Source: a virus
Reading direction: 5' to 3' (one strand)
Virus record (IMG/VR): IMGVR_UViG_3300045988_058230
Span: 1 to 45,004 of that record
DNA: 45,004 bases
Positions 252 to 40,266 of the stretch are shown here, piece after piece. Every line of letters starts with the position of its first letter. The stretch's first letter is position 1. A program made the position numbers and the translations under genes. Below the pieces are notes generated by a model. That model was not told the origin of the DNA. It worked only from the letters and a program-made list of their open reading frames with translations, and did not search any database.

Positions 252-387
252 GCCGTCATAGCTCAATTGGCAGAGCGCCGTCCATTTAAGGCGGGACAAC
301 GTTGGTGACACCACGGGAACATCACTGCACAGCCAACCACTGCGCACATCCATTCCGTGGGTGCTGGTTCAAATCCAGCTGGCGGCA
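252..387 (+). tRNA. Non-canonical tRNA-like gene (136 nt). Acceptor, D and T arms are perfect. The anticodon loop is CATTTAA (UUU/Lys-like, but A at position 33). A 68-nt structured insertion replaces the variable loop.
   Basis: Acceptor GCCGTCA/TGGCGGC (7 bp, one G-U pair); D arm GCTC-AATTGGCA-GAGC; anticodon stem CCGTC/GGCGG; T arm GCTGG-TTCAAAT-CCAGC. Positions 295..362 fold into a two-segment hairpin, with pairing roughly 309-319 to 353-361 and 326-332 to 340-346. Confidence 0.55.
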
Positions 388-5839: not shown

Positions 5840-6127
5840 ATGGAAACACCAAAAATCACGAAGGTGGAGCTTGAACTGGATGCTGTTTCTGGCGAACTCC
5901 GAGTAATGCACGACCTGTTGAACATCTTTGCCAACTGGTTTGAGGAAACGCACAAGACCGATATGATCAAGCGGGAGCGCACCAGCGAGCTTGTGAGCCA
6001 GATTTGGAGCGAAGCCCCGATGTACAGCTCTATGCTGACGGCCTTGTTTGCATCCCTCACCGGGCTGGAAAAGGAAGTTGATGCAGTTCTTGAATCGGAG
6101 ATTGCGAGGGTCAGCAATGGATGCTAA
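5840..6127 (+). CDS. Hypothetical protein.
   Basis: 95-aa ORF in the moron island. Its stop overlaps the start of the next gene (ATG 6117). Confidence 0.5.
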   Translation: METPKITKVELELDAVSGELRVMHDLLNIFANWFEETHKTDMIKRERTSELVSQIWSEAPMYSSMLTALFASLTGLEKEVDAVLESEIARVSNGC

Positions 6128-6752
6128 AAAAGATATTGAAGGGAAAAGATTTGGCAGATTAATTGCGATAGAGCTTGTTCCGGGAAATGGACGTTCCAGG
6201 TGGAAATGTGTTTGCGACTGCGGTAATACTATAGAAGCAAATCGAACCAATTTGGTATCTGGAAATACCAAAAGCTGTGGATGTTTAAGAAAGGAAACTT
6301 CAAGAAAAAATGTAGAAAAGCACCCATTTACTAAAAAGCATGGGAAGCACGGAACCAGAATATATGAAACGTGGGCAAATATGCTTTCTAGGTGTAGAAA
6401 TCCTAAAATCAGATCGTATAGAGATTATGGATCCAGAGGAATCAAAGTATGTGAAGAGTGGCTTGAATTTGAAAATTTCTATAAATGGGCGTTATCATCG
6501 GGGTATAAAGAAAATTTAACGATTGACAGAATAGATGTTAATAAGGATTATTCACCAGAAAATTGCAGATGGGCAACAACAAAGCAACAGGCAAGAAACA
6601 AAAGAACATCCGTTTTTATTACTTATAAAGGAGAGACTAAGGTATTAAAAGATTGGGCGATAGAGTATAAAATAGACAGCTCAACGCTAAAAGGAAGAAT
6701 TTCGAGAGGATGGAGAATTGAAGACGCACTAACAAAACCGGTAAAAAAGTAA
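6117..6752 (+). CDS. Zinc-ribbon plus degenerate HNH-like DNA-binding protein, with the flavour of a homing endonuclease.
   Basis: The N-terminus reads GKRFGRLIAI..WKCVCDCG..SCGC and the centre reads TIDRIDVNKDYSPENCRWATTKQQARNK. The gene is AT-rich compared with the backbone. The N-terminal motif is shared with 22749..23450. Confidence 0.55.
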   Translation: MDAKKDIEGKRFGRLIAIELVPGNGRSRWKCVCDCGNTIEANRTNLVSGNTKSCGCLRKETSRKNVEKHPFTKKHGKHGTRIYETWANMLSRCRNPKIRSYRDYGSRGIKVCEEWLEFENFYKWALSSGYKENLTIDRIDVNKDYSPENCRWATTKQQARNKRTSVFITYKGETKVLKDWAIEYKIDSSTLKGRISRGWRIEDALTKPVKK

Positions 6753-6813
6753 ATTTTTTTGGAAGAAGCTCACATTGTGGGCTTCTTCTTTTTATACCCA
6801 AATTCCAATATAT

Positions 6814-6890
6814 GCCGCTTTAGCTCAGTCTGGCAGAGCACCGGACTTTTAATCCGGGGGCCGTGGGTTCAAGCCCCACAGGCGGCACCA
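6814..6890 (+). tRNA. tRNA-Lys (anticodon UUU), canonical, with encoded CCA.
   Basis: Acceptor GCCGCTT/AGGCGGC; D arm GCTC..GAGC; anticodon arm CCGGA-CTTTTAA-TCCGG; T arm GTGGG-TTCAAGC-CCCAC; 3' end ACCA. Confidence 0.9.
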
Positions 6891-6965
6891 CGCCGGCAGC
6901 ACGTCCGGAAAATAAACCTTATTGCCAAGCATGGCAGCCCGAGCAAGGGCAGAAAGGACTATCAC

Positions 6966-7556
6966 ATGGCACTCAAAAGAGCTGACATCCGCACGATTCT
7001 GGAGAACCCCGAAACCTCCAACGATGACAAGGTCGAAGCCATTCTGGACGCCCTGCACAAGGAGACGGACGGACTCAGAAATCAGCTGGATGAAGAAAAA
7101 ACAGCCCGCACACAGGCCGAGAAGGACCGTGATGCAGCCAACAGCGGCAAGCAGGCCGCTGAAAAGGCGCTGACCGACTACAAGGCCAAGCAGACAGCAG
7201 CAGCCAGCAAGGCGGCCAAGACCGCTGCGTTTAAGCAGCTGCTCAAGCAGGCGGGCGTGCTGGAAAAGTACATCGACGACATTGCCGACGACTCCAAGAA
7301 GGGCGACGAATTTGCCGCCGGTCTGGAACTGGACGCCGACGGCAAGGTGAAAGACGCCGAAAAGCAGCTTTCCAGCATCAAAAATACATGGGGCGGCAAA
7401 ATTGCCACCACCAAAACCACCGGCGCAAAGGTGGACAACCCTCCCACCAGTTACGCCGGGACTTCTCCCGAGGATTTCAAAAAGATGAGCCTTGATGACC
7501 GCATCAAGCTCAAGAACAGCAACCCTGAACTGTACCAGCAGCTCCGGGCAAAGTAA
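6966..7556 (+). CDS. Scaffolding protein (putative).
   Basis: ORF 6759..7556 was trimmed to the ATG at 6966, because the upstream part overlaps tRNA-Lys. The product is K/A/E/D-rich and coiled-coil-like, and sits directly upstream of the capsid gene. Confidence 0.7.
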   Translation: MALKRADIRTILENPETSNDDKVEAILDALHKETDGLRNQLDEEKTARTQAEKDRDAANSGKQAAEKALTDYKAKQTAAASKAAKTAAFKQLLKQAGVLEKYIDDIADDSKKGDEFAAGLELDADGKVKDAEKQLSSIKNTWGGKIATTKTTGAKVDNPPTSYAGTSPEDFKKMSLDDRIKLKNSNPELYQQLRAK

Positions 7557-27762: not shown

Positions 27763-28896
27763 TCAGTACTTCATCTTCTGCATTTCCTGCAACAAATAGG
27801 CTGGATCGTTGTGGGACACGTACTTGTTTGCCGTGGTGGAGAAATTTTTGTGCCCAAGGATGGCCTGCACGGCGGTCTTTTCTAAGCCGCACTCCACCAT
27901 CTTGCTACTGGCCGTGTGGCGCAGCGTGTGTGGATGCACCCCCTCTATGTGGCATTCCTGCATCAACGCCCGGAACTTTGTAGCCACGTTGCGCTTATCC
28001 AGCTTTGTGCCGGTCTTGGATGGAATCAGCCACTCACAGCCGCTATCAAGCATCCAAAAGGCAATGATCTTGTAAATGGGCTCAAGGATGGGGATGATGC
28101 GGTTCTTGCCTGCTTCTGTCTTTTCACCGCCCTGCATGTACCGCTCTTTCAGGTGCACATCCTCGCAGCGCATGGAAAGCAGCTCGTCAATGCGCATACC
28201 GGTATAAAGCAGCACCATTGCAATTTGCGCCGTCTGCCCAAACTTCGGGTCATTTTGTCGGCTGCTGATCCGCTCGATCTCTTGGGCGGTCAGGGTGCGC
28301 TCTTCTTTTCCTGTAGCCGCCGGGAGCTGCAGTAGCATGGCGTAATTTTTGTTTATAATGTCCTGCGCCATTGCCCACTCGCAGATCTGGCTGAAAAGTG
28401 TGCGCTGCTTTTCGCAGGAGCTGCGGGAAAGTCCCTTTTCCACCATTGCGTCAATGACCTGTTGATAATCTGCCGCTTTTAAGTCCCGCAATTGTCGGTC
28501 GTATAGCGGAACAGCCTTTGCATAGGCCAGCTCGTACCCCTTTTGCATGTCCGTGCTGAGCTTGTCAAATTTGGGCTGCGCTTTCCATTTGGCATAGGCA
28601 TCCGCAAAGGTGCATTTCAGACGCGCTGCGGGCGTGTTCTGGGCGTTGTAAGCGTCCAGCGCTTGTACGGCTTCGCCTGCCGTTTCAAACGTCCCCAGAA
28701 CGTCCCTTTGGGCTGTAAGCGCCACATACGGTCTTGCCCGCGTCCCACTCAGTTTATACACGCTGCCGCTGCCCTTGGGACGGCGGCGCTTTTTTCTTTG
28801 CTGCGGGGCGGCTTCCGGCTGCTTCTTCCCGCACCACGGACAAAAAGAAGCACCATCCGGGATCTCTTTCCTGCAGCATGGTCTCACGCATTTCAT
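27763..28896 (-). CDS. int: Tyrosine integrase with an N-terminal zinc ribbon.
   Basis: 377 aa. It begins MKCVRPCCRKEIPDGASFCPWCGKK and carries catalytic-type motifs TGMRIDELL, HTLRHTASS, LGH and NKYVSH (Tyr). Confidence 0.9.
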   Translation of the reverse strand: MKCVRPCCRKEIPDGASFCPWCGKKQPEAAPQQRKKRRRPKGSGSVYKLSGTRARPYVALTAQRDVLGTFETAGEAVQALDAYNAQNTPAARLKCTFADAYAKWKAQPKFDKLSTDMQKGYELAYAKAVPLYDRQLRDLKAADYQQVIDAMVEKGLSRSSCEKQRTLFSQICEWAMAQDIINKNYAMLLQLPAATGKEERTLTAQEIERISSRQNDPKFGQTAQIAMVLLYTGMRIDELLSMRCEDVHLKERYMQGGEKTEAGKNRIIPILEPIYKIIAFWMLDSGCEWLIPSKTGTKLDKRNVATKFRALMQECHIEGVHPHTLRHTASSKMVECGLEKTAVQAILGHKNFSTTANKYVSHNDPAYLLQEMQKMKY

Positions 28897-31535: not shown

Positions 31536-31647
31536 GACTGAAATCCTCGCCGGAAATGAGGCAGACTTCGTGCTGGTTCATTTTCCCGTTGTGCTTCTCC
31601 ATATATAATAGGAGAGCCAGGCTCTTTTTGTCCAAAAACTCAGCCAT
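31306..31647 (-). CDS. Winged-helix-like small protein.
   Basis: ATG at 31647 behind GGAAGGA. The product, MAEFLDKKSLALLLYMEKHNGKMNQHEV.., overlaps the upstream XRE gene stop by 8 nt. Confidence 0.6.
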   Translation of the reverse strand: MAEFLDKKSLALLLYMEKHNGKMNQHEVCLISGEDFSLNGQNRYIQNLKGRGLIDERRKEYIPDGVGGFLPSEYIYSLPLAGEAYLQELRADRENQILQAALDLLVSIFGQKF

Positions 31648-31993
31648 TGGGGTTTTCCTTCCTCTTTGCAACCTTAAATTCCATATACTCCAGAAGATCT
31701 GCACGGTCTGCATCGGTCATCTGACTTAGCAGCGTGTCAAACCTTGCATCCAGCTCGCTCCCGCCGGGAGCGAGCTTTTCTTTTTGGCTTTCATTGCCAG
31801 AAACCAAAGATTCAACGCTTATCTCAAAATAATTTGCAATTTTTTCAAGCGTCTCGTACTTCAATGTCTGCTTTCTACCAGACTTCAAATCGGATAAAGA
31901 GCCACGACTTGCACCGGAATCTCTGCACATCGTTGTCACGTTGACCCCGCGCTTTTTGCAGAGGTTTTCGATATTGTTGTACAAGTTTGCCAT
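31640..31993 (-). CDS. XRE-family repressor (CI-like) of the early switch.
   Basis: ATG at 31993. HTH stretch: IENLCKKRGVNVTTMCRDSGASRGSLSDLKSGRK. It is divergent from the Cro-like gene. Confidence 0.8.
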   Translation of the reverse strand: MANLYNNIENLCKKRGVNVTTMCRDSGASRGSLSDLKSGRKQTLKYETLEKIANYFEISVESLVSGNESQKEKLAPGGSELDARFDTLLSQMTDADRADLLEYMEFKVAKRKENPNG

Positions 31994-32050
31994 AATTCCA
32001 GACCTCAAATTGTGAGTTGCGCCGAAATTACGCGAACGCTTAAAAAAGCC

Positions 32051-32079
32051 TTGCATTTTACGCGAAAGCGTATTATACT
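32051..32079 (+). promoter_or_regulatory. Rightward early promoter (TTGCAT-17 nt-TATACT) with a TACGC-N4-GCGTA inverted repeat in the spacer.
   Basis: Read directly: TTGCAT at 32051..32056, TATACT at 32074..32079, operator at 32059..32072. Confidence 0.6.
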
Positions 32080-32806: not shown

Positions 32807-33627
32807 GCGAATTAAACAATCTCATCCCCATTAGCTACGATAACCCGGAGCGCCCCACGGTGAGCGGCCGGGAGCTGCACGAGTTTTTGCAGGTTGGCGC
32901 AGATTACCGGCATTGGTTTCCTCGTATGTGTGAGTACGGCTTTACCGAGGGCGAGGATTTCAACCCGGTCAAAATTGACCGAGTTCAAAATGAGGGCGGG
33001 CGCAAGGTCACGCGCACGGTGGACGATCACCAGCTCACCATCCCGATGGCGAAGGAGCTGTGCATGATCCAGCGCAACGAGCGTGGCAAGCAGGCGCGGC
33101 AATATTTTCTGGCTGTGGAGGCGCAATGGAACAGCCCGGAAGCGGTCATGCGCCGTGCGGTGCTTATCGCCCAGAAGCAGAACGACCAGCTCAAGGCTGC
33201 CAACCGCCAGCTTCTGGCAGAGAACAGCGACCTGAAGCCGGATGCAGAGTATGCCCGGGCGGTGTGCGTGGGCAAGAACTGCCGCACCACTACCACCCTT
33301 GCCAAGGATTACGGCCTGAGCGCCGAGAAACTCAACAGCATCCTTCACGGCCTGAAGATCCAGTACAAGACCAGCGACGGCCAGTGGGTGCTATACGCCA
33401 AGTATTGCGGCAAGGGTTACACCAAAAACCGCAAATCCACGCCGTTCCAGCACAAGAGCACCGGCGAGTGGGACACTAAGAACACCACCGTATGGACGGA
33501 AGCCGGACAGCGCTTTATCTATGAGCAGCTCAAGGCCATAGGAATGCTGCCCAGCGTGGAGCGCAGGCAGAGCGTGGAGCAGATGGAGCTTGCCGCCCAG
33601 CAGAACAACCAGGACGGGGTGGCGTAA
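32803..33627 (+). CDS. Antirepressor (AntA/Bro-like N-terminal domain plus KilAC-like C-terminal domain).
   Basis: ATG at 32803. The N-terminal region reads VSGRELHEFLQVGADYRHWFPRMCEYGFTEGEDF and the C-terminal region TTTLAKDYGLSAEKLNSILHGLKIQYK. Confidence 0.8.
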   Translation: MSELNNLIPISYDNPERPTVSGRELHEFLQVGADYRHWFPRMCEYGFTEGEDFNPVKIDRVQNEGGRKVTRTVDDHQLTIPMAKELCMIQRNERGKQARQYFLAVEAQWNSPEAVMRRAVLIAQKQNDQLKAANRQLLAENSDLKPDAEYARAVCVGKNCRTTTTLAKDYGLSAEKLNSILHGLKIQYKTSDGQWVLYAKYCGKGYTKNRKSTPFQHKSTGEWDTKNTTVWTEAGQRFIYEQLKAIGMLPSVERRQSVEQMELAAQQNNQDGVA

Positions 33628-33652
33628 GCAATATATTTTGGAGGTTACTATT

Positions 33653-34285
33653 ATGAAAAAACTGCATGTGAAAGCTACGTTTATTGAGCCGGTGCTGGGC
33701 ACATGGCCTGCAAACCCCAATGTTGCCCGGGAGTTCATCGCCAGCAAGTCGCCGGATGCTGCAACCATCGAGGATGAAGTGGCGGCTCTTGGCCCCGATG
33801 CGGTAGCCGACAAGGGCATGACCGTTTTCCCGCGTGACCCGGACGGCAATCCGATTTTTTACGATTACCAGATCAAAGGCATGTTTAAGGATGCTTGCGG
33901 CATGCTTTCCCGCATCGGCGGAAAGACCGAAACGGGAAAGAAGCGGGCTGCGAACGAAAGCGGCAAGCTGACCGCTTACAAGAAGGTCATTGACGGTCTG
34001 ATCTTCGTTCAGCCCCGCATGATCCCTATTCATGTGAACGGTGAGATTACCGACTGCCAGCGCCCTCTCCGCGCCCAGACCGCGCAGGGCGAGCGCGTAA
34101 GCCTTGTCAACAGTGAGGAGATCCCCGCTGGTTCGACCTGCGAGTTTGAGGTCATGCTGCTGGACGATTCTCACGAGAAGGTCGTGCGTGAGTGGCTGGA
34201 CTACGGTGCTCTGCGCGGCATCGGCCAATGGCGCAACAGCGGCAAAGGCCGGTTTACCTACATCGCCTATGAGGTGAATGCCTGA
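33653..34285 (+). CDS. Hypothetical protein with a C-terminal glycine-rich loop, GIGQWRNSGKGRF.
   Basis: ATG at 33653 behind GGAGG; 210 aa. It ends at a TGA that is followed in-frame by 102 sense codons. Confidence 0.7.
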   Translation: MKKLHVKATFIEPVLGTWPANPNVAREFIASKSPDAATIEDEVAALGPDAVADKGMTVFPRDPDGNPIFYDYQIKGMFKDACGMLSRIGGKTETGKKRAANESGKLTAYKKVIDGLIFVQPRMIPIHVNGEITDCQRPLRAQTAQGERVSLVNSEEIPAGSTCEFEVMLLDDSHEKVVREWLDYGALRGIGQWRNSGKGRFTYIAYEVNA

Positions 34286-34749
34286 GAGCAAGGGCATGGC
34301 ATTGACGGCCCTGATTCGCGGAGGCGGTGCAGCTCGAGGCGTGGCAATGGCAAGGCTGAGTTCGATTGGCCGTGCGATGCTTGGCAAAGGCAAGGCACGG
34401 CGGTGCAAAGCAAAGGCTATGAGGTGAACTGCTGTGCAGTGGCACTGAGAAGCACGGACAGGCAAGGCGAAGGAATGGCAGAGAAAAGCGCTGATGTGAT
34501 TTGCGAAGGAAAAGTGGTGCACCGTAACGATTCGCTGCGGCAAGGCTTTGCTTCGGATGCATTGGCATGGAAGAGAGAAGAAATGCCGTGATTTGCGATG
34601 GAATGGCTTGGCAATGAGCAGCTCGGTTGAGTAGCGCAATGGCTTTGAGAAGCGATGTTTAGCAAAGGCAGTGAAGAGTGAAGCGAGGAAGTGCAGAGAA
34701 CTGCGACGGCACAGCAAAGAAAAGACATTTTATTAAACATTTTATTAAA
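34286..34749 (+). repeat. Non-coding, purine-skewed field of degenerate repeats (GGCAA[G/T/A]GGC, CAANGGCTNTGAG, GTGATTTGCGA[A/T]GGAA x2). It ends in an exact 12-bp AT-rich tandem duplication.
   Basis: Read directly. GTGATTTGCGA..GGAA occurs at 34496 and 34588; CTATGAGGTGAA at 34268 and 34418; CATTTTATTAAA occurs twice at 34726..34749. Confidence 0.6.
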
Positions 34750-34762
34750 AGGAGAAACGAGC

Positions 34763-35005
34763 ATGAAAAAAATTATTGTTGGCGTAGCGTCCGTATTGGC
34801 AAGCGCTTTGCTGATGGCCGGATGCAATAAGCAGGTTATTGACCTGACCTATGAATACAACTGGGCACAGCTGAAAATGCCCGACGGAACGATTGTCGAG
34901 GGCAATGTCGAAAGCTGGTGCGACTATGAAGGCGACCAGCTTCAGGTTGTGATTGACGGTGTGACCTATCTGGTTCATTCGTCCAACATTGTTATGCGTC
35001 ATTGA
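34763..35005 (+). CDS. Small lipoprotein.
   Basis: ATG at 34763 behind AAAGGAG. Signal and lipobox: MKKIIVGVASVLASALLMAGC. 80 aa. Confidence 0.75.
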   Translation: MKKIIVGVASVLASALLMAGCNKQVIDLTYEYNWAQLKMPDGTIVEGNVESWCDYEGDQLQVVIDGVTYLVHSSNIVMRH

Positions 35006-35021
35006 TGCAAGGAGGGGCTTT

Positions 35022-35339
35022 ATGAAAACCACGATGCGCGATAAGGTTTGCCAGCTGATTGGCAAGTATCAGTATCTCGAAGACTATTACAAAACGAAAG
35101 CGGCCATCAACGCACAAAAGAGCTTCTTAGACGGCGGCTTTATCATCCGGCTTGCAGAGCCTGCGCAGGCGGATATGTGCGGCCAGTTCTTGGCCGATTT
35201 GAACAAGCTGCTGGAAGAGGACGAAGCTGCCGCAGCCCAGGAAGACCCCCGCAAGACCGCCCCGGCGGGCAAGTGGCGCGCGGACTCAGCGACACAGGCA
35301 GCCGAGAGAGCCGCAAAGGAGGTGCGGGACAATGGGTGA
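35022..35339 (+). CDS. Hypothetical protein.
   Basis: ATG at 35022 behind AAGGAGGGG; 105 aa. Confidence 0.6.
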   Translation: MKTTMRDKVCQLIGKYQYLEDYYKTKAAINAQKSFLDGGFIIRLAEPAQADMCGQFLADLNKLLEEDEAAAAQEDPRKTAPAGKWRADSATQAAERAAKEVRDNG

Positions 35340-35567: not shown

Positions 35568-36299
35568 ATGAGTGAGAAGGTCATCGCCTACAAGGCCATG
35601 GATAAAAATATGAAGTGCCGTGGCAAGCAGTACGAGGTGGGCAAGACCTACACAGAGCCGGAGGCGGACTGCTGCCACGCTGGTATGCATGCCTGCGAGA
35701 ACCCGCTGGATGTGCTGCACTACTACCCGCTGAAGAATAGCCCGCGCTTTTTTGAGGTCGAGTGCGGCGGGAACGTGGATAAAAGCGGAGAGGACAGTAA
35801 ACTGGCCTGCACTGAGCTGACGGTAAAAGGTGAGGTGAATTTTGCAGGGCTGGTAAAAGCTGCGGTGAATGCCGTTTTTAATCGGGTGAAGGGCAAAGAA
35901 CCTTTTTCCAGCGGCTATTGCAGCACGGCGGGGTCCAGCGGCAATTCCAGCACGGCAGGTTCCAGCGGCAATTCCAGCACGGCGGGGTCCAGCGGCGATT
36001 ACAGCACGGCTGGTTCGAGCGGCGATTACAGCACGGCGGGGTCCAGCGGCGATTACAGCACGGCAGCAGCCACTGGGGATTATTGCAGCGCAAAAGCAGA
36101 CGGAAAAGATAGCATTGCCGTTGTAAACGGTGCTTGCGGTAAGGCATGCGGCGCAATGGGATGCTATCTGGTGCTGACCGAGTACGATGATGACGGCCAC
36201 ATGATCTGTGCCAAAATGGCCCGCATGGACGGTTCTGCCATCAGAGAAAACGTTTACTATACCCTCAAAAATGGCGAGTTTGTGGAGGCTGAGCCGTGA
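35568..36299 (+). CDS. Cys/His-rich N-terminal domain protein with six nonapeptide repeats, STAGSSG[N/D][S/Y].
   Basis: 243 aa. The N-terminal region reads KCRGKQYEVGKTYTEPEADCCHAGMHACENPLDVLHYY. The repeats correspond to the 27-bp DNA tandem array. Confidence 0.75.
   Translation: MSEKVIAYKAMDKNMKCRGKQYEVGKTYTEPEADCCHAGMHACENPLDVLHYYPLKNSPRFFEVECGGNVDKSGEDSKLACTELTVKGEVNFAGLVKAAVNAVFNRVKGKEPFSSGYCSTAGSSGNSSTAGSSGNSSTAGSSGDYSTAGSSGDYSTAGSSGDYSTAAATGDYCSAKADGKDSIAVVNGACGKACGAMGCYLVLTEYDDDGHMICAKMARMDGSAIRENVYYTLKNGEFVEAEP
35922..36083 (+). repeat. 27-bp tandem repeat x6 (coding, in frame).
   Basis: Units begin at 35922, 35949, 35976, 36003, 36030 and 36057 (AGCACGGCGGGGTCCAGCGGC[A/G]ATT[C/A]C and variants). 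Confidence 0.9.
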
Positions 36300-39486: not shown

Positions 39487-40266
39487 GTGGCAAAAGAAGA
39501 AAAAAAGTCGTTTGTCGTGTATCTGGATTGGTTCGACGCGCTGGAGGAGTACACGGATGCCGAAGTCGGACAGCTGATGCGAGCTTTGGCGAAACACGTC
39601 CGCACCGGTGAAAATCCAACGTTTTCCGACCGCGGAATGCGTGGGAACTTCCGTTTTATGTGCAATGGAGTGGATTCGGCTGCGGAAAAGTACGAGAACG
39701 TCAAGCAAAAGCGCCGTGAAGCCGGAAAAGCCCGTGCTGCTCAAATGAAAGCAAGTTCAGCAAATGCTAGCACATGCTACCAAGTGCAAGCAAGTGGTAA
39801 CTATAATGATACTGTTACTGTTACTGGTACTGGAACTGTTACTGGTACTGGAACTGTTACTGGTACTGGAACTGTTATATCCCCTAACGGGGATATATAT
39901 AATAGCTCCGCCAAAGCCGCCGTTGACGTAGAACTTTCCAAGATCGTCCAGCATTATCAGCAAGCCGTCGGAGACTTCCCACGCTCTGCACTGGACAAGC
40001 TGCAGAAGTGGAGGCAGGAGTACAGCACAGAGATGATCCTGCTGGCAATCGACAAGGCCACAGAAGCCGGAAAGCGCTCGTGGAGCTACATCAACGGAAT
40101 ATTGTCCGGATGGAAACGAGACGGCCTGCGCACGCCGGGAGACGTGGAAGCCAACGAACAAAGCCGACAATCCAGACCGAGGAGCAAGCAGCCAACCGAG
40201 ACCGTAGACGACCAGCTTGCCCGGGTGCTGGCGAAGATGGACAGAGAAAGAGGGTTTGAGACATGA
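39487..40266 (+). CDS. Replisome organizer (DnaD/DnaB_2-domain-like).
   Basis: GTG at 39487 behind AAGGAGGTG. The C-terminal region reads AGKRSWSYINGILSGWKRDGLRTPGDV. The internal linker TVTVTGTGTVTGTGTVTGTGTV is encoded by an 18-bp tandem repeat. Confidence 0.7.
   Translation: MAKEEKKSFVVYLDWFDALEEYTDAEVGQLMRALAKHVRTGENPTFSDRGMRGNFRFMCNGVDSAAEKYENVKQKRREAGKARAAQMKASSANASTCYQVQASGNYNDTVTVTGTGTVTGTGTVTGTGTVISPNGDIYNSSAKAAVDVELSKIVQHYQQAVGDFPRSALDKLQKWRQEYSTEMILLAIDKATEAGKRSWSYINGILSGWKRDGLRTPGDVEANEQSRQSRPRSKQPTETVDDQLARVLAKMDRERGFET
39811..39876 (+). repeat. 18-bp tandem repeat (ACTGGTACTGGAACTGTT x3, plus a partial leading unit), coding a Thr/Gly/Val linker.
   Basis: Units lie at 39823, 39841 and 39859. 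The repeat is AT-rich relative to the rest of the gene. Confidence 0.9.

What the first reader, a model, noticed from the sequence alone, without database searches (positions are those of the whole stretch)
33653..34285. Early-region protein ending in a Cas6/RAMP-style glycine-rich loop, next to a repeat field
The 210-aa product ends ...DYGALRGIGQWRNSGKGRFTYIAYEVNA. The stretch G-I-G-x5-G-K-G fits the G-h-G-x5-G-h-G glycine-rich loop found near the C-terminus of Cas6 and other RAMP RNA-binding proteins. The size is similar too. It lies directly upstream of ~460 bp of non-coding degenerate repeats. If it is an RNA-binding or RNA-processing protein, the adjacent repeats could be its substrate. 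This is a single-motif argument and may be coincidental.
Basis: inference. Interest (0 to 1): 0.65.

Follow-up and report, generated by a model that had tools for sequence, protein, structure and literature searches.

The report
Phage Cas7-like protein with G-lattice repeats
A very common but unnamed early gene of gut-bacterial phages encodes a stand-alone relative of the CRISPR backbone protein Cas7, and it always travels with a 150-800-base non-coding stretch carrying a G every 5.15 bases, a protein/nucleic-acid pairing I could not find described anywhere.

Summary

**The protein.** The 210-aa ORF (33653-34285) is real. It has no Pfam, PHROG or NCBIfam match. Its predicted fold (pLDDT 86) matches only Cas7-type RAMP proteins: type VII Cas7, Csm3, Cas7-11 and Cmr4. 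It does not match Cas6. The C-terminal glycine-rich loop is conserved across the family and aligns with the loops of Cas7 and Csm4.

**The repeats.** The 464 nt downstream are not a CRISPR array. They form a quasi-periodic lattice of about 88 G(C/A)NNN units with a non-integer period of 5.15 nt. Spectral power is 14.8, against 2.5±0.5 in shuffles.

**The linkage.** The same lattice flanks the gene in about 180 of 186 related loci, down to roughly 35% protein identity. It lies 3' or 5' of the gene and is always G-rich on the sense strand. The period is constant (5.15±0.03) even though the sequences are unalignable.

**Other context.** No cas genes or CRISPR arrays accompany it. The module sits at the start of the early operon of temperate phages. 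Rare two-domain fusions are predicted to resemble fused Cas7 backbones, and the one fusion locus with a full-length field shows a doubled (10.4 nt) superperiod.

**Best reading (inferred).** The protein forms a CRISPR-independent Cas7 filament on the lattice transcript. Its function is probably counter-defence, which is untested.

The parts
33640..33644 (+). Shine-Dalgarno sequence GGAGG, 8 nt before the ATG of the Cas7-like gene
   Evidence: Read directly from the sequence.
33653..34285 (+). Gene for a 210-aa stand-alone Cas7-like (RAMP) protein. It belongs to a very large unnamed phage family.
   Evidence: ORF. No Pfam, PHROG or NCBIfam hit. Over 7,900 clusters at 90% identity and 1,712 clusters at 50% identity. 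AF2 pLDDT 86. Foldseek top 50 are all Cas7-type RAMPs. Weak PADLOC hits to Cas7_IIId, Csm3 and Csm4 in some members.
34049..34123 (+). Codons for residues 133-157, a long beta-hairpin (predicted Cas7 'thumb'). Conserved residues are R137, L139, R140, T143, G146, R148, S154 and E155.
   Evidence: Secondary structure E133-143/E146-157. Conservation. This stretch aligns to type VII Cas7.
34217..34255 (+).
   Evidence: Conservation. Aligned to the G-rich loops of type VII Cas7 and Csm4.
34286..34728 (+). G-lattice field of about 88 units, G(C/A)NNN with occasional 6-mers ending in G. Period is 5.14-5.15 nt. It is G- and A-rich on the sense strand and starts at the stop codon.
   Evidence: Autocorrelation and spectrum. 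Unit segmentation. No promoter or terminator on the + strand between the gene and the field, or after the field. The same kind of field sits next to homologues in about 180 loci.
34291..34312 (+). Possible small hairpin at the 5' edge of the field (AGGGC-N12-GCCCT). Weak.
   Evidence: Read from the sequence. L007 has AGGC-N8-GCCT at the same place. Across 41 loci, 40-nt windows starting 0-10 nt after the stop fold to -9.6/-9.7 kcal/mol, against about -7 kcal/mol inside the field. Strong hairpins at this spot in L185 and L186.
34725..34748 (+). Two exact copies of ACATTTTATTAA. They end the non-coding region just before the RBS of the next gene (ATG 34763).
   Evidence: Role unknown.

Best explanation
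The gene and the field form one two-part module of temperate phages.

**Protein.** It is a stand-alone, probably non-catalytic, Cas7-type RAMP protein.

**Field.** It is transcribed with the gene, as its 3' trailer (as here) or its 5' leader. It gives a long purine-rich RNA that presents a G about every 5.15 nt.

**Proposed mechanism (inferred).** The protein polymerises head-to-tail on this RNA, as Cas7 subunits do on crRNA, with one RAMP domain per lattice unit and a pocket that reads the periodic G. The result would be a CRISPR-independent Cas7 ribonucleoprotein filament of roughly 30-150 subunits.

**Proposed function (more speculative).** The module is made at the very start of the early operon. 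The most likely use of such a filament is counter-defence, for example as a decoy backbone that ties up host type III or other class 1 CRISPR subunits, or other RNA-directed defences.

**Shown here:** the fold, family-wide conservation of the RAMP motifs, the lattice, and its strict linkage and orientation.

**Inferred:** RNA (rather than DNA) as the bound form, filament formation, and the biological role.
For: **Fold**
- All top 50 Foldseek PDB hits are Cas7 of type VII, III-A, III-B, III-D or III-E.
- A family profile hits type VII Cas7 and Csm4 sequences.
- PADLOC gives weak Cas7_IIId/Csm3/Csm4 hits.
- The BFVD homologue (68% identity) is named 'Cas system-associated RAMP superfamily protein'.

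**Linkage**
- A period of 5.10-5.25 nt dominates the 350 nt after the gene in 86 of 90 close relatives.
- In 80 genome loci at 50-85% identity, 78 have their strongest 3.5-12-nt periodicity at 5.0-5.2 nt. In 71 of these the power is at least 7. With the exception of L125 and the weak signals in L123 and L163, it directly abuts the gene.
- All 13 loci at 31-39% identity to the two-domain query P0198 have the field.
- In 4 apparent exceptions the field lies 0.6-1.9 kb downstream.
- No other conserved partner gene was found.

**Selection acts on the lattice, not the sequence**
- Only 28 of 2,556 field pairs are detectable by blastn.
- The period is 5.147±0.027 across loci and does not depend on AT content between 33% and 62%.
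- Six consecutive units span exactly 31 nt in 68% of cases. The 6-mers recur every 5-7 units and carry a GG doublet.
- Indels between close relatives are multiples of the lattice unit.

**RNA and co-transcription**
- G exceeds C on the sense strand in 62 of 63 downstream fields and 16 of 16 upstream fields.
- No promoter or terminator lies between gene and field in the window.
- In L117 the field is the 5' leader of the first early gene.
- In L185 an intrinsic terminator follows the field directly.

**Filament**
- Natural two-domain fusions exist (P0138, P0198).
- The P0198 model (pTM 0.81) superposes as a whole on fused multi-Cas7 proteins, with TMq 0.40-0.48 against 0.26 for a single Csm3.
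- The field next to P0198 shows a 10.4-nt subharmonic with power 3.2. This exceeds all 73 single-domain fields, whose maximum is 1.9.
Against: - No experiment or transcript data exist. Binding is inferred only from co-inheritance.
- All known Cas7 proteins hold RNA in 6-nt steps and without base specificity. A 5.15-nt, G-specific, non-integer register has no precedent.
- 2 × 5.15 = 10.3, which equals a B-DNA helical repeat. The long-range phase coherence therefore fits a rigid duplex at least as naturally as a flexible RNA.
- The field RNA is neither unusually structured nor unusually unstructured.
- The subharmonic evidence rests on one locus. The second fusion locus (L186) is truncated and shows none.
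- AlphaFold's domain arrangement for the fusion may be borrowed from Cas7-11-like structures it was trained on.
- Nothing links the hosts to type III CRISPR. The counter-defence role rests only on gene position and analogy.
Confidence: 0.5

Rival explanations
1. The field acts as duplex DNA. The protein (or a host factor) binds the double helix at every half turn, alternating faces, and builds a nucleoprotein structure over 150-800 bp. This structure would have a regulatory or architectural role in the early region.
For: - The period is non-integer, and twice 5.155 is 10.31, a typical helical repeat of protein-bound or A-tract-rich B-DNA.
- Phase coherence extends beyond 130 nt. 6-mers are regularly spaced and GG doublets occur where the ideal site falls between two bases, as expected for a rigid lattice.
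- About half of the units start with the self-complementary GC step.
Against: - The protein fold belongs to a superfamily known only to bind single-stranded RNA.
- The strand orientation of the lattice relative to the gene is kept in 78 of 79 cases, in both the 5' and 3' arrangements.
- Non-lattice positions are also strand-asymmetric (A 0.38 against T 0.21).
- The period does not track AT or AA/TT content, as intrinsic DNA twist would.
- No 10.3-nt line appears in the averaged spectrum.
Confidence: 0.2
2. The protein is an orphan viral Cas7 that works as an anti-CRISPR by itself, poisoning or capping host Csm/Cmr/Cascade backbones. The field is only a cis element of the mRNA (for example a Rho-resistant, G-rich, C-poor untranslated spacer, or a translational regulator) and is not a filament template.
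For: - Orphan viral cas homologues that inhibit CRISPR are documented (bioRxiv 10.1101/2023.06.24.545427).
- The module sits at the start of the early operon.
- The G-rich, C-poor composition is the opposite of a Rho loading site (the Rho point rests on my own knowledge).
Against: - A spacer or anti-Rho element does not need a phase-coherent 5.15-nt lattice conserved across unalignable sequences.
- It would not need lattice-preserving indels.
- It would not be expected to show a doubled period next to a doubled protein.
Confidence: 0.12
3. The protein is a Cas6-like endoribonuclease that cuts the repeat transcript into small units.
For: - RAMP fold and G-rich loop.
- A repeat transcript lies next to the gene.
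- A modest hairpin tendency at the 5' edge of fields.
Against: - Structural matches are to Cas7, not Cas6.
- There is one RRM core plus a thumb, not the double-RRM Cas6 architecture.
- No invariant His or other obvious catalytic residue. The invariant residues are L15, G76, K79, R137, G146, S154, R194 and G199.
- Units are 5-6 nt without hairpins, unlike any Cas6 substrate.
Confidence: 0.06
4. The module is a prophage-carried defence (or superinfection-exclusion) system, not counter-defence. A Cas7-like RNP would sense or block incoming phage nucleic acids.
For: - Prophages often carry defence genes near the lysogeny switch (my own knowledge).
- A lipoprotein gene follows the field in the window.
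- Type III and type VII relatives are defence proteins.
Against: - The module is oriented with, and embedded in, the lytic early operon (cro, Ant, RecT, SSB direction) without its own promoter or terminator.
- No effector (nuclease, Cas10, protease) is linked to it.
- The low-complexity lattice carries no guide information.
Confidence: 0.08
5. Coincidence. The glycine motif is a chance match and the repeats are unrelated simple sequence.
Against: - Fold, profile and motif conservation.
- Lattice power is about 25 sd above shuffles.
- The field co-occurs with the gene in about 180 independent loci.
Confidence: 0.01

Closest known systems
Cas7 backbone subunits of type VII and type III CRISPR-Cas (type VII Cas7, Csm3, Cmr4)
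   Same: - Same RAMP fold with a thumb hairpin and a C-terminal G-rich loop, and these are the best structural and profile matches.
- Similar size (about 200 aa).
- Like type VII Cas7, it has no conserved catalytic Asp in the beta1-alpha1 loop.
   Different: - No cas5, cas10, cas11, cas6 or cas14 gene and no CRISPR array nearby.
- Below the curated thresholds of all Cas7 sequence models.
- Encoded by phages.
- The partner nucleic acid is a 5.15-nt G lattice rather than a crRNA held in 6-nt steps.
Fused multi-Cas7 effectors (Cas7-11/gRAMP of type III-E, Cas7 fusions of type III-D)
   Same: Rare family members are tandem fusions of two RAMP domains (P0138, P0198). The model of P0198 superposes as a whole on these proteins.
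   Different: - Only two domains.
- No Cas11-like insertion, no crRNA-processing domain and no TPR-CHAT partner.
- Most family members are single-domain.
Orphan viral cas genes acting as anti-CRISPRs (AcrIB3, AcrIB4, AcrVIA2; Katz et al., bioRxiv 10.1101/2023.06.24.545427)
   Same: A Cas homologue encoded by a phage without an array or a cas operon, in an early or anti-defence-type position.
   Different: - Those were found by sequence similarity to host Cas proteins. This family is too divergent for that.
- None of them is reported with a dedicated repeat field.
- Anti-CRISPR activity is untested here.
RNA anti-CRISPRs (Racr, solitary CRISPR repeat units in phages; PMC10651486)
   Same: A phage-encoded non-coding RNA proposed to engage Cas7-type proteins in non-productive complexes.
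   Different: Racrs mimic the host CRISPR repeat (about 30 nt with a hairpin or handle) and use host Cas proteins. This field has no repeat-like unit, and the phage brings its own Cas7-like protein.
Type III toxin-antitoxin systems (ToxIN, CptIN)
   Same: A protein gene next to a tandem-repeat RNA that assembles with it (my own knowledge).
   Different: ToxI-type repeats are exact 34-45-nt units processed by a ToxN endoRNase of unrelated fold. Here the units are 5-6 nt and degenerate, and the protein is a RAMP.
Sequence-periodic RNA assembly sites (TMV origin of assembly with G every third base; TRAP binding to GAG/UAG triplets spaced by 2-3 nt)
   Same: One conserved base or triplet per protein subunit along an otherwise free sequence (my own knowledge). 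This is the closest analogy for how a G lattice could template an oligomer.
   Different: - Unrelated proteins.
- Those periods are integers.
- TRAP sites are short (11 repeats). This field has 30-150 units with a non-integer period and long-range phase coherence.

Membership tests
RAMP superfamily / Cas7 (Csm3-Cmr4-type VII Cas7 group) | RRM (ferredoxin-like) core with a protruding beta-hairpin 'thumb' | tested here: met
   AF2 model pLDDT 86, pTM 0.79. The Foldseek PDB top 50 are all Cas7-type chains, with E 1e-9 to 1e-6 and TM 0.45-0.56.
RAMP superfamily / Cas7 (Csm3-Cmr4-type VII Cas7 group) | Conserved glycine-rich loop near the C-terminus | tested here: met
   The consensus is G-h-G-Q-W-R-N-x-G-x-G-R-F. 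G199 and R194 are invariant, and G189, Q192, W193, N195 and F201 are at least 90% conserved. The loop aligns to the loops of type VII Cas7 and Csm4.
RAMP superfamily / Cas7 (Csm3-Cmr4-type VII Cas7 group) | Match to curated sequence models of the family (Pfam RAMP, NCBIfam, PADLOC cas7/csm3) | tested here: not met
   No Pfam or NCBIfam family for the window protein or for 31 members. PADLOC gives only weak hits: Cas7_IIId in 6 of 31 members (best E 2.5e-4), and Csm3 or Csm4 in 1-2 members.
RAMP superfamily / Cas7 (Csm3-Cmr4-type VII Cas7 group) | Catalytic Asp after beta1 (Csm3 D32/33, Cmr4 D26) for target RNA cleavage | tested here: not met
   No invariant acidic residue in residues 11-30. 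Positions 21 and 23 vary among N, D, K and E, and E12 is present in most but not all of the 31 sequences. This resembles the inactive type VII and type I Cas7 proteins.
RAMP superfamily / Cas7 (Csm3-Cmr4-type VII Cas7 group) | Encoded in a cas operon next to a CRISPR array | tested here: not met
   Neighbours are phage early genes: repressor, Cro, Ant, DUF7666, DUF1351, RecT, SSB and DnaD. No repeat-spacer array is in the window. No conserved cas neighbour in 81 loci.
RAMP superfamily / Cas7 (Csm3-Cmr4-type VII Cas7 group) | Head-to-tail filament on RNA with 6 nt per subunit | not testable with these tools
   Indirect evidence only. Tandem fusions are predicted to be arranged like neighbouring Cas7 domains. 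The linked lattice has a period of 5.15 nt, not 6.
Cas6 endoribonuclease | Two RRM domains; best structural matches to Cas6; catalytic His/Tyr/Lys; hairpin or defined repeat substrate | tested here: not met
   Single RRM core. No Cas6 in the top 50 hits for the monomer. Cas6 appears only at ranks 49-50 with TM 0.19 for the two-domain model. No invariant His. Units of 5-6 nt have no hairpins.
CRISPR array | Direct repeats of 23-47 nt separated by unique spacers of similar length | tested here: not met
   Only short degenerate families were found. The spectrum has a single line at 5.15 nt and its harmonic. No array elsewhere in the window.
Orphan viral cas homologue with anti-CRISPR function | cas homologue on a virus without array or operon | tested here: met
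   Structural homologue of Cas7 on a temperate phage with integrase, repressor and a structural module.
Orphan viral cas homologue with anti-CRISPR function | Inhibits a CRISPR-Cas system of the host | not testable with these tools
   This needs plasmid- or phage-targeting assays. Host CRISPR content is not visible in the data at hand.
Known RNA families (Rfam 15) | Covariance-model match | tested here: not met
   No match at gathering score in the window, apart from three tRNA matches outside this region. No match at E<=1 in 33400-35100.

The most novel reading that the evidence does not exclude
A widespread class of phage ribonucleoprotein not described before, to my knowledge. A CRISPR-independent Cas7 filament is templated by a genome-encoded, quasi-periodic (5.15 nt) G-lattice RNA, and the lattice constant is set by the geometry of the protein polymer. 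It would be the first Cas7 relative with its own non-guide RNA partner and with base-specific, non-6-nt register. It may be used to disarm RNA-guided or RNA-sensing host defences, and may be informative about how Cas7 backbones arose or decay.
Probability: 0.4. Interest if true: 0.9.

Novelty: categorically new. Interest (0 to 1): 0.85.

Why it matters
**Scale.** The family is large: at least 7,989 clusters at 90% identity and 1,712 at 50%. It is found in phages and prophages of Faecalibacterium, Oscillospiraceae, other Clostridia and Coriobacteriia. It carries no functional annotation in Pfam, PHROGs or NCBIfam.

**Link to CRISPR.** This work ties the family to the CRISPR backbone protein Cas7. 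It also shows that the gene is inseparable from a non-coding element of a kind I could not find described. That element is conserved as a non-integer spatial lattice rather than as a sequence.

**If the filament model holds.** It would be a new way of building a Cas7-type RNP without CRISPR. It would be a probable new counter-defence strategy in the human gut virome. It could also serve as a programmable protein-RNA polymer with a simple sequence code.

**If the DNA model holds.** It would be a RAMP protein that reads the DNA helix, which would be equally unexpected.

**Testability.** Either way the finding can be tested directly with a few oligonucleotides and one recombinant protein.

Tried and rejected
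- **Sequence-family searches with the window protein alone** (Pfam, PHROGs, NCBIfam, PDB sequences) gave nothing. Only the family profile and the predicted structure were informative.
- **CRISPR-array reading.** Rejected. There is no repeat-spacer pattern.
- **Coding reading of the field.** Rejected. There is no period-3 signal. The 49- and 62-aa + strand ORFs, and the 395-aa antisense ORF 33530-34717, are by-products of the purine-rich, stop-poor composition.
- **Structured-RNA reading.** No support. MFE z = -0.11 and no Rfam hit.
- **Replication-origin reading.** Unlikely. The phage has classic 18-nt iterons inside its DnaD-like gene at 39792-39875.
- **31-nt higher-order repeat as the cause of the regularity.** Not supported. 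The averaged spectrum has no 31-nt line. Autocorrelation decays smoothly through lags 31, 36, 62, 67 and 98, as for a continuous 5.155-nt lattice.
- **Intrinsic terminators after fields.** Found in only 2 of 72 loci, so the field is usually internal to the early transcript.
- **Search for a third conserved gene.** None found.
- **Fused domains in longer members.** Only a Big_2 domain in one member and Lys-rich tails in others.
- **Locus of the second fusion protein, P0138.** Too short to test the subharmonic. The IMG/VR scan for P0138 found nothing.
- **Literature searches** for orphan or viral Cas7, Cas7-like prophage RNPs, 5-nt periodicity and RAMP proteins in gut phages found no description of this module.
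Full report
**1. The observation**

The + strand ORF 33653-34285 starts at an ATG 8 nt after a GGAGG.

The next gene is a small lipoprotein-like ORF whose product begins MKKIIVGVASVLASALLMAGC. It starts at 34763, so 34286-34749 is intergenic.

The surroundings are the early region of a temperate tailed phage:
- integrase, 27763-28896 (-)
- XRE repressor, 31640-32056 (-)
- a cro-like gene from 32171
- AntA/KilAC antirepressor, ending at 33627
- the gene in question and the non-coding field
- DUF7666, DUF1351, RecT, SSB and a DnaD-like replisome organiser

Structural genes fill the first half of the window.

**2. The protein is a Cas7-type RAMP protein, not Cas6**

Alone, the sequence matches nothing meaningful in Pfam, PHROGs, NCBIfam or PDB sequences. 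It nevertheless belongs to a very large unnamed family:
- 7,989 clusters at 90% identity among the 8,000 candidates scored
- 1,712 clusters at 50% identity

An alignment of 31 members at 40-57% identity (A1) shows what is conserved:
- Invariant: L15, G76, K79, R137, G146, S154, R194, G199.
- A YDYQIKGFFK helix start.
- An RPLRxxTxQGERVALxxSE hairpin.
- The loop EWLDYGxxxGLGQWRNxGxGRF.

A profile of A1 hits type VII Cas7 (8yhd and related entries, E 1e-4) and Csm4 (E 2.7e-3). Both alignments run through the hairpin and the glycine-rich loop.

AlphaFold2 with A1 gives pLDDT 86 and pTM 0.79. Foldseek against the PDB returns 223 hits at E<=1e-3. All top 50 are Cas7-family chains: type VII Cas7, Csm3 from five organisms, Cas7-11, Cmr4 and type III-D fusions. 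Their E-values run from 1e-9 to 1e-6 and TM from 0.45 to 0.56.

PADLOC's cas models give weak hits in some members: Cas7_IIId in 6 of 31, plus Csm3 and Csm4. In BFVD the closest viral structure (68% identity) already carries the automatic name 'Cas system-associated RAMP superfamily protein'.

No acidic residue is invariant where Csm3 and Cmr4 carry their catalytic Asp. The protein therefore looks like a non-cleaving backbone subunit, as in type VII and type I systems.

**3. The 'degenerate repeats' are a G lattice with a non-integer period**

- Identity autocorrelation of 34286-34749 peaks at lags 5, 10/11, 15/16, 20/21, 26, 31 and 36, with no period-3 signal.
- The spectrum has one sharp line at 5.14-5.15 nt. 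Its power is 14.8, against 2.47±0.48 (maximum 5.5) in 1000 dinucleotide-preserving shuffles. No other part of the window comes near.
- Chaining the G's splits the field into about 88 units, such as GCAAG GGCAT GGCATT GACG GCCCT GATTC.
- Pooled over 64 fields there are 4,121 five-mers, 948 six-mers and 194 four-mers.
- The unit profile is G at position 1, C 0.48 / A 0.33 at position 2, A 0.47 at position 3, then A or T.
- Six-mers are typically GCAAnG followed by the next G. This is a GG doublet placed where the ideal site falls between two bases.
- Six consecutive units span exactly 31 nt in 68% of cases, against about 40% expected for random placement of six-mers. Six-mers recur every 5-7 units rather than geometrically.
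- Averaged over 73 fields, the autocorrelation is as high at lag 31 (0.417) as at lag 5 (0.421). It decays slowly through lags 62, 67, 98 and 129.
- The averaged spectrum shows only 5.155 nt and its harmonic, with no 31-nt line.

The element is therefore a phase-coherent lattice of about 5.155 nt, not a tandem repeat of a defined sequence.

**4. Gene and lattice are inseparable**

*Close relatives (82-97% identity, 90 loci).* The 350 nt after the stop have a dominant period of 5.10-5.25 nt in 86 loci. The other four (L060, L077, L078, L083) lack it there. In the three I scanned further (L060, L077, L083) the field lies 0.6-1 kb further on.

*Species-representative genomes (50-85% identity, 80 loci).* The hosts are Faecalibacterium, Oscillospiraceae, other Clostridia, Coriobacteriia and a few other bins.
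- In 78 loci the strongest 3.5-12-nt periodicity of the roughly 10-kb locus lies at 5.0-5.2 nt.
- In 71 of these the power is at least 7.
- The field directly abuts the gene in most cases. It is downstream in 63-64 loci and upstream in 16.
- L125 is the clear outlier, with the field about 1.9 kb downstream. The signals assigned to L123 and L163 lie 0.7-1.3 kb upstream.

*More distant loci.* All 13 IMG/VR loci at 31-39% identity to the two-domain query P0198, with GC from 43% to 63%, also have the field.

*Properties shared across loci.*
- The period is 5.147±0.027 and is independent of AT content.
- Only 28 of 2,556 field pairs share blastn-detectable similarity.
- Base composition varies widely. 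C falls to 0.04 and T rises to 0.32 in some fields.
- G exceeds C on the gene's sense strand in 62 of 63 downstream fields and in 16 of 16 upstream fields.
- Between close relatives, indels cluster on lattice multiples: 5, 10/11, 16, 20/21, 25/26, 31, 36, 57, 62, 67 and 72 nt.
- Flanking genes differ between lineages.
- Clustering all ORFs of 81 loci finds no third conserved partner and no cas genes. It finds only the generic repressor, SSB, Ant, DUF1351 and exonuclease genes.

**5. Evidence on how it works**

*Transcription*
- No promoter-like or terminator-like site lies on the + strand between gene and field, or after the field.
- Only 2 of 72 fields end with a terminator.
- In L117 the field fills the leader between the divergent switch region and the Cas7-like gene, which is the first early gene.
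- In L185 a hairpin precedes the field and a strong intrinsic terminator follows it.
- Together with the fixed strand orientation, this points to the sense transcript as the active form.

*Oligomerisation*
- Two family members are natural tandem fusions of two RAMP domains.
- The P0198 model (pLDDT 83, pTM 0.81) finds fused multi-Cas7 proteins as its best matches. These are the type III-D fusion 8s9u_D and many Cas7-11/gRAMP entries.
- Those alignments cover the whole query with TMq 0.40-0.48. A single Csm3 gives 0.26.
- The two domains are therefore predicted to sit like neighbouring backbone subunits.

*One domain per unit*
- The field next to P0198 shows a subharmonic at 10.4 nt with power 3.2, alongside the 5.17-nt line. 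Its units alternate between GGTAA-like and AGCAA-like.
- None of 73 single-domain fields exceeds 1.9 at twice its own period.
- This rests on a single locus. The second fusion locus (L186) is cut after about 150 nt of field.

*5' edge*
- The first 40-50 nt after the stop fold somewhat better than the field interior (-9.7 against about -7 kcal/mol per 40 nt). This may mark a start or nucleation site.

**6. Interpretation**

The best-supported model has the protein polymerising head-to-tail on the lattice transcript, one RAMP domain per unit, with each domain reading the periodic G. This would give a CRISPR-independent Cas7 filament.

The weak point is the register. Known Cas7 proteins hold RNA in 6-nt steps without base specificity, and a non-integer, phase-coherent period is what a rigid helix would give. 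Twice 5.155 is 10.31, a plausible B-DNA repeat. A duplex-DNA reading is therefore the main rival.

Four results argue against that rival:
- the fold;
- the conserved strand orientation in both gene-field arrangements;
- the strand asymmetry at non-lattice positions;
- the lack of any dependence of the period on composition.

These arguments do not exclude it.

The biological role is open. The module's position at the head of the early operon suggests counter-defence. So do the precedent of orphan viral cas genes acting as anti-CRISPRs (10.1101/2023.06.24.545427) and the precedent of RNA anti-CRISPRs. This is analogy, not evidence.

**7. Comparison with what is known, and novelty**

- The protein is a highly divergent member of the Cas7/RAMP superfamily by fold and motif. 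It fails the curated sequence models and lacks the genomic context that defines a Cas protein.
- The field is not a CRISPR array, not a Racr-type solitary repeat, not a ToxI-type repeat RNA, and not in Rfam.
- Five literature searches found no description of a stand-alone viral Cas7 with a dedicated repeat element, nor of a 5-nt G lattice in phages. The library does not hold subscription-only papers, so prior description cannot be fully excluded.

I rate the module as categorically new, although its protein component belongs to a known superfamily.

**8. Verdict**

The finding is considerably more interesting than a single-motif argument suggested.

Noticed in passing
window 39792-39875: Four to five copies of an 18-nt unit (TACTGGTACTGGAACTGT) inside the DnaD-like replisome-organiser gene (39487-40266). 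This looks like the phage's iteron-type replication origin.
   Followed up: partly
window 35879-36108 (inside gene 35568-36299): Seven copies of a 27-nt repeat that encode a nonapeptide repeat (SSG[DN][YS]STAG) in the middle of a DUF7666 protein. A DUF7666 gene also follows the module in L005.
   Followed up: no
window 252-387: Rfam's tRNA model matches a 136-nt stretch (46 bits, full model length), but ARAGORN does not call it. It may be a tRNA gene interrupted by an insertion or intron, next to tRNA-Trp at 57-130.
   Followed up: no
window 6814-6890 (low-GC stretch 6001-7000, GC 0.42): A tRNA-Lys(UUU) gene sits in a markedly AT-rich kilobase within the structural-gene half of the phage.
   Followed up: no
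window 33530-34717 (- strand): A 395-aa antisense ORF spans the Cas7-like gene and most of the field. Similar antisense ORFs recur in 64 of 81 loci. They are a by-product of the purine-rich, stop-poor sense strand, and gene callers sometimes annotate pieces of the field (a 77-aa 'gene' in L001).
   Followed up: yes
P0138 (458 aa), P0198 (432 aa); loci L186, L185: Natural tandem fusions of two Cas7-like domains exist. In both loci a strong hairpin sits right after the stop codon and before the lattice. In L185 an intrinsic terminator closes the field.
   Followed up: partly
P0125, P0128, P0135 (family members of 291-349 aa): Some members carry C-terminal additions. P0125 has a Big_2 Ig-like domain. 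P0128 and P0135 have long low-complexity tails ending in Lys/Arg-rich stretches.
   Followed up: no
window 34725-34748: An exact tandem duplication of ACATTTTATTAA separates the end of the G lattice from the ribosome-binding site of the following lipoprotein-like gene (34763-35005).
   Followed up: no
L139 around 3251: This locus lacks a clear G lattice next to the gene. It has a strong 6.0-nt periodicity about 2.4 kb upstream of the gene's stop. This is probably a coding repeat, but I did not examine it.
   Followed up: no
L001-L004 (contigs of about 100-215 kb): An 83%-identical homologue with its field sits among dozens of small unannotated genes. A DUF2786/DUF7168 gene and a PemK-type toxin gene lie just downstream. 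This context differs from the lysogeny-switch position seen elsewhere.
   Followed up: no
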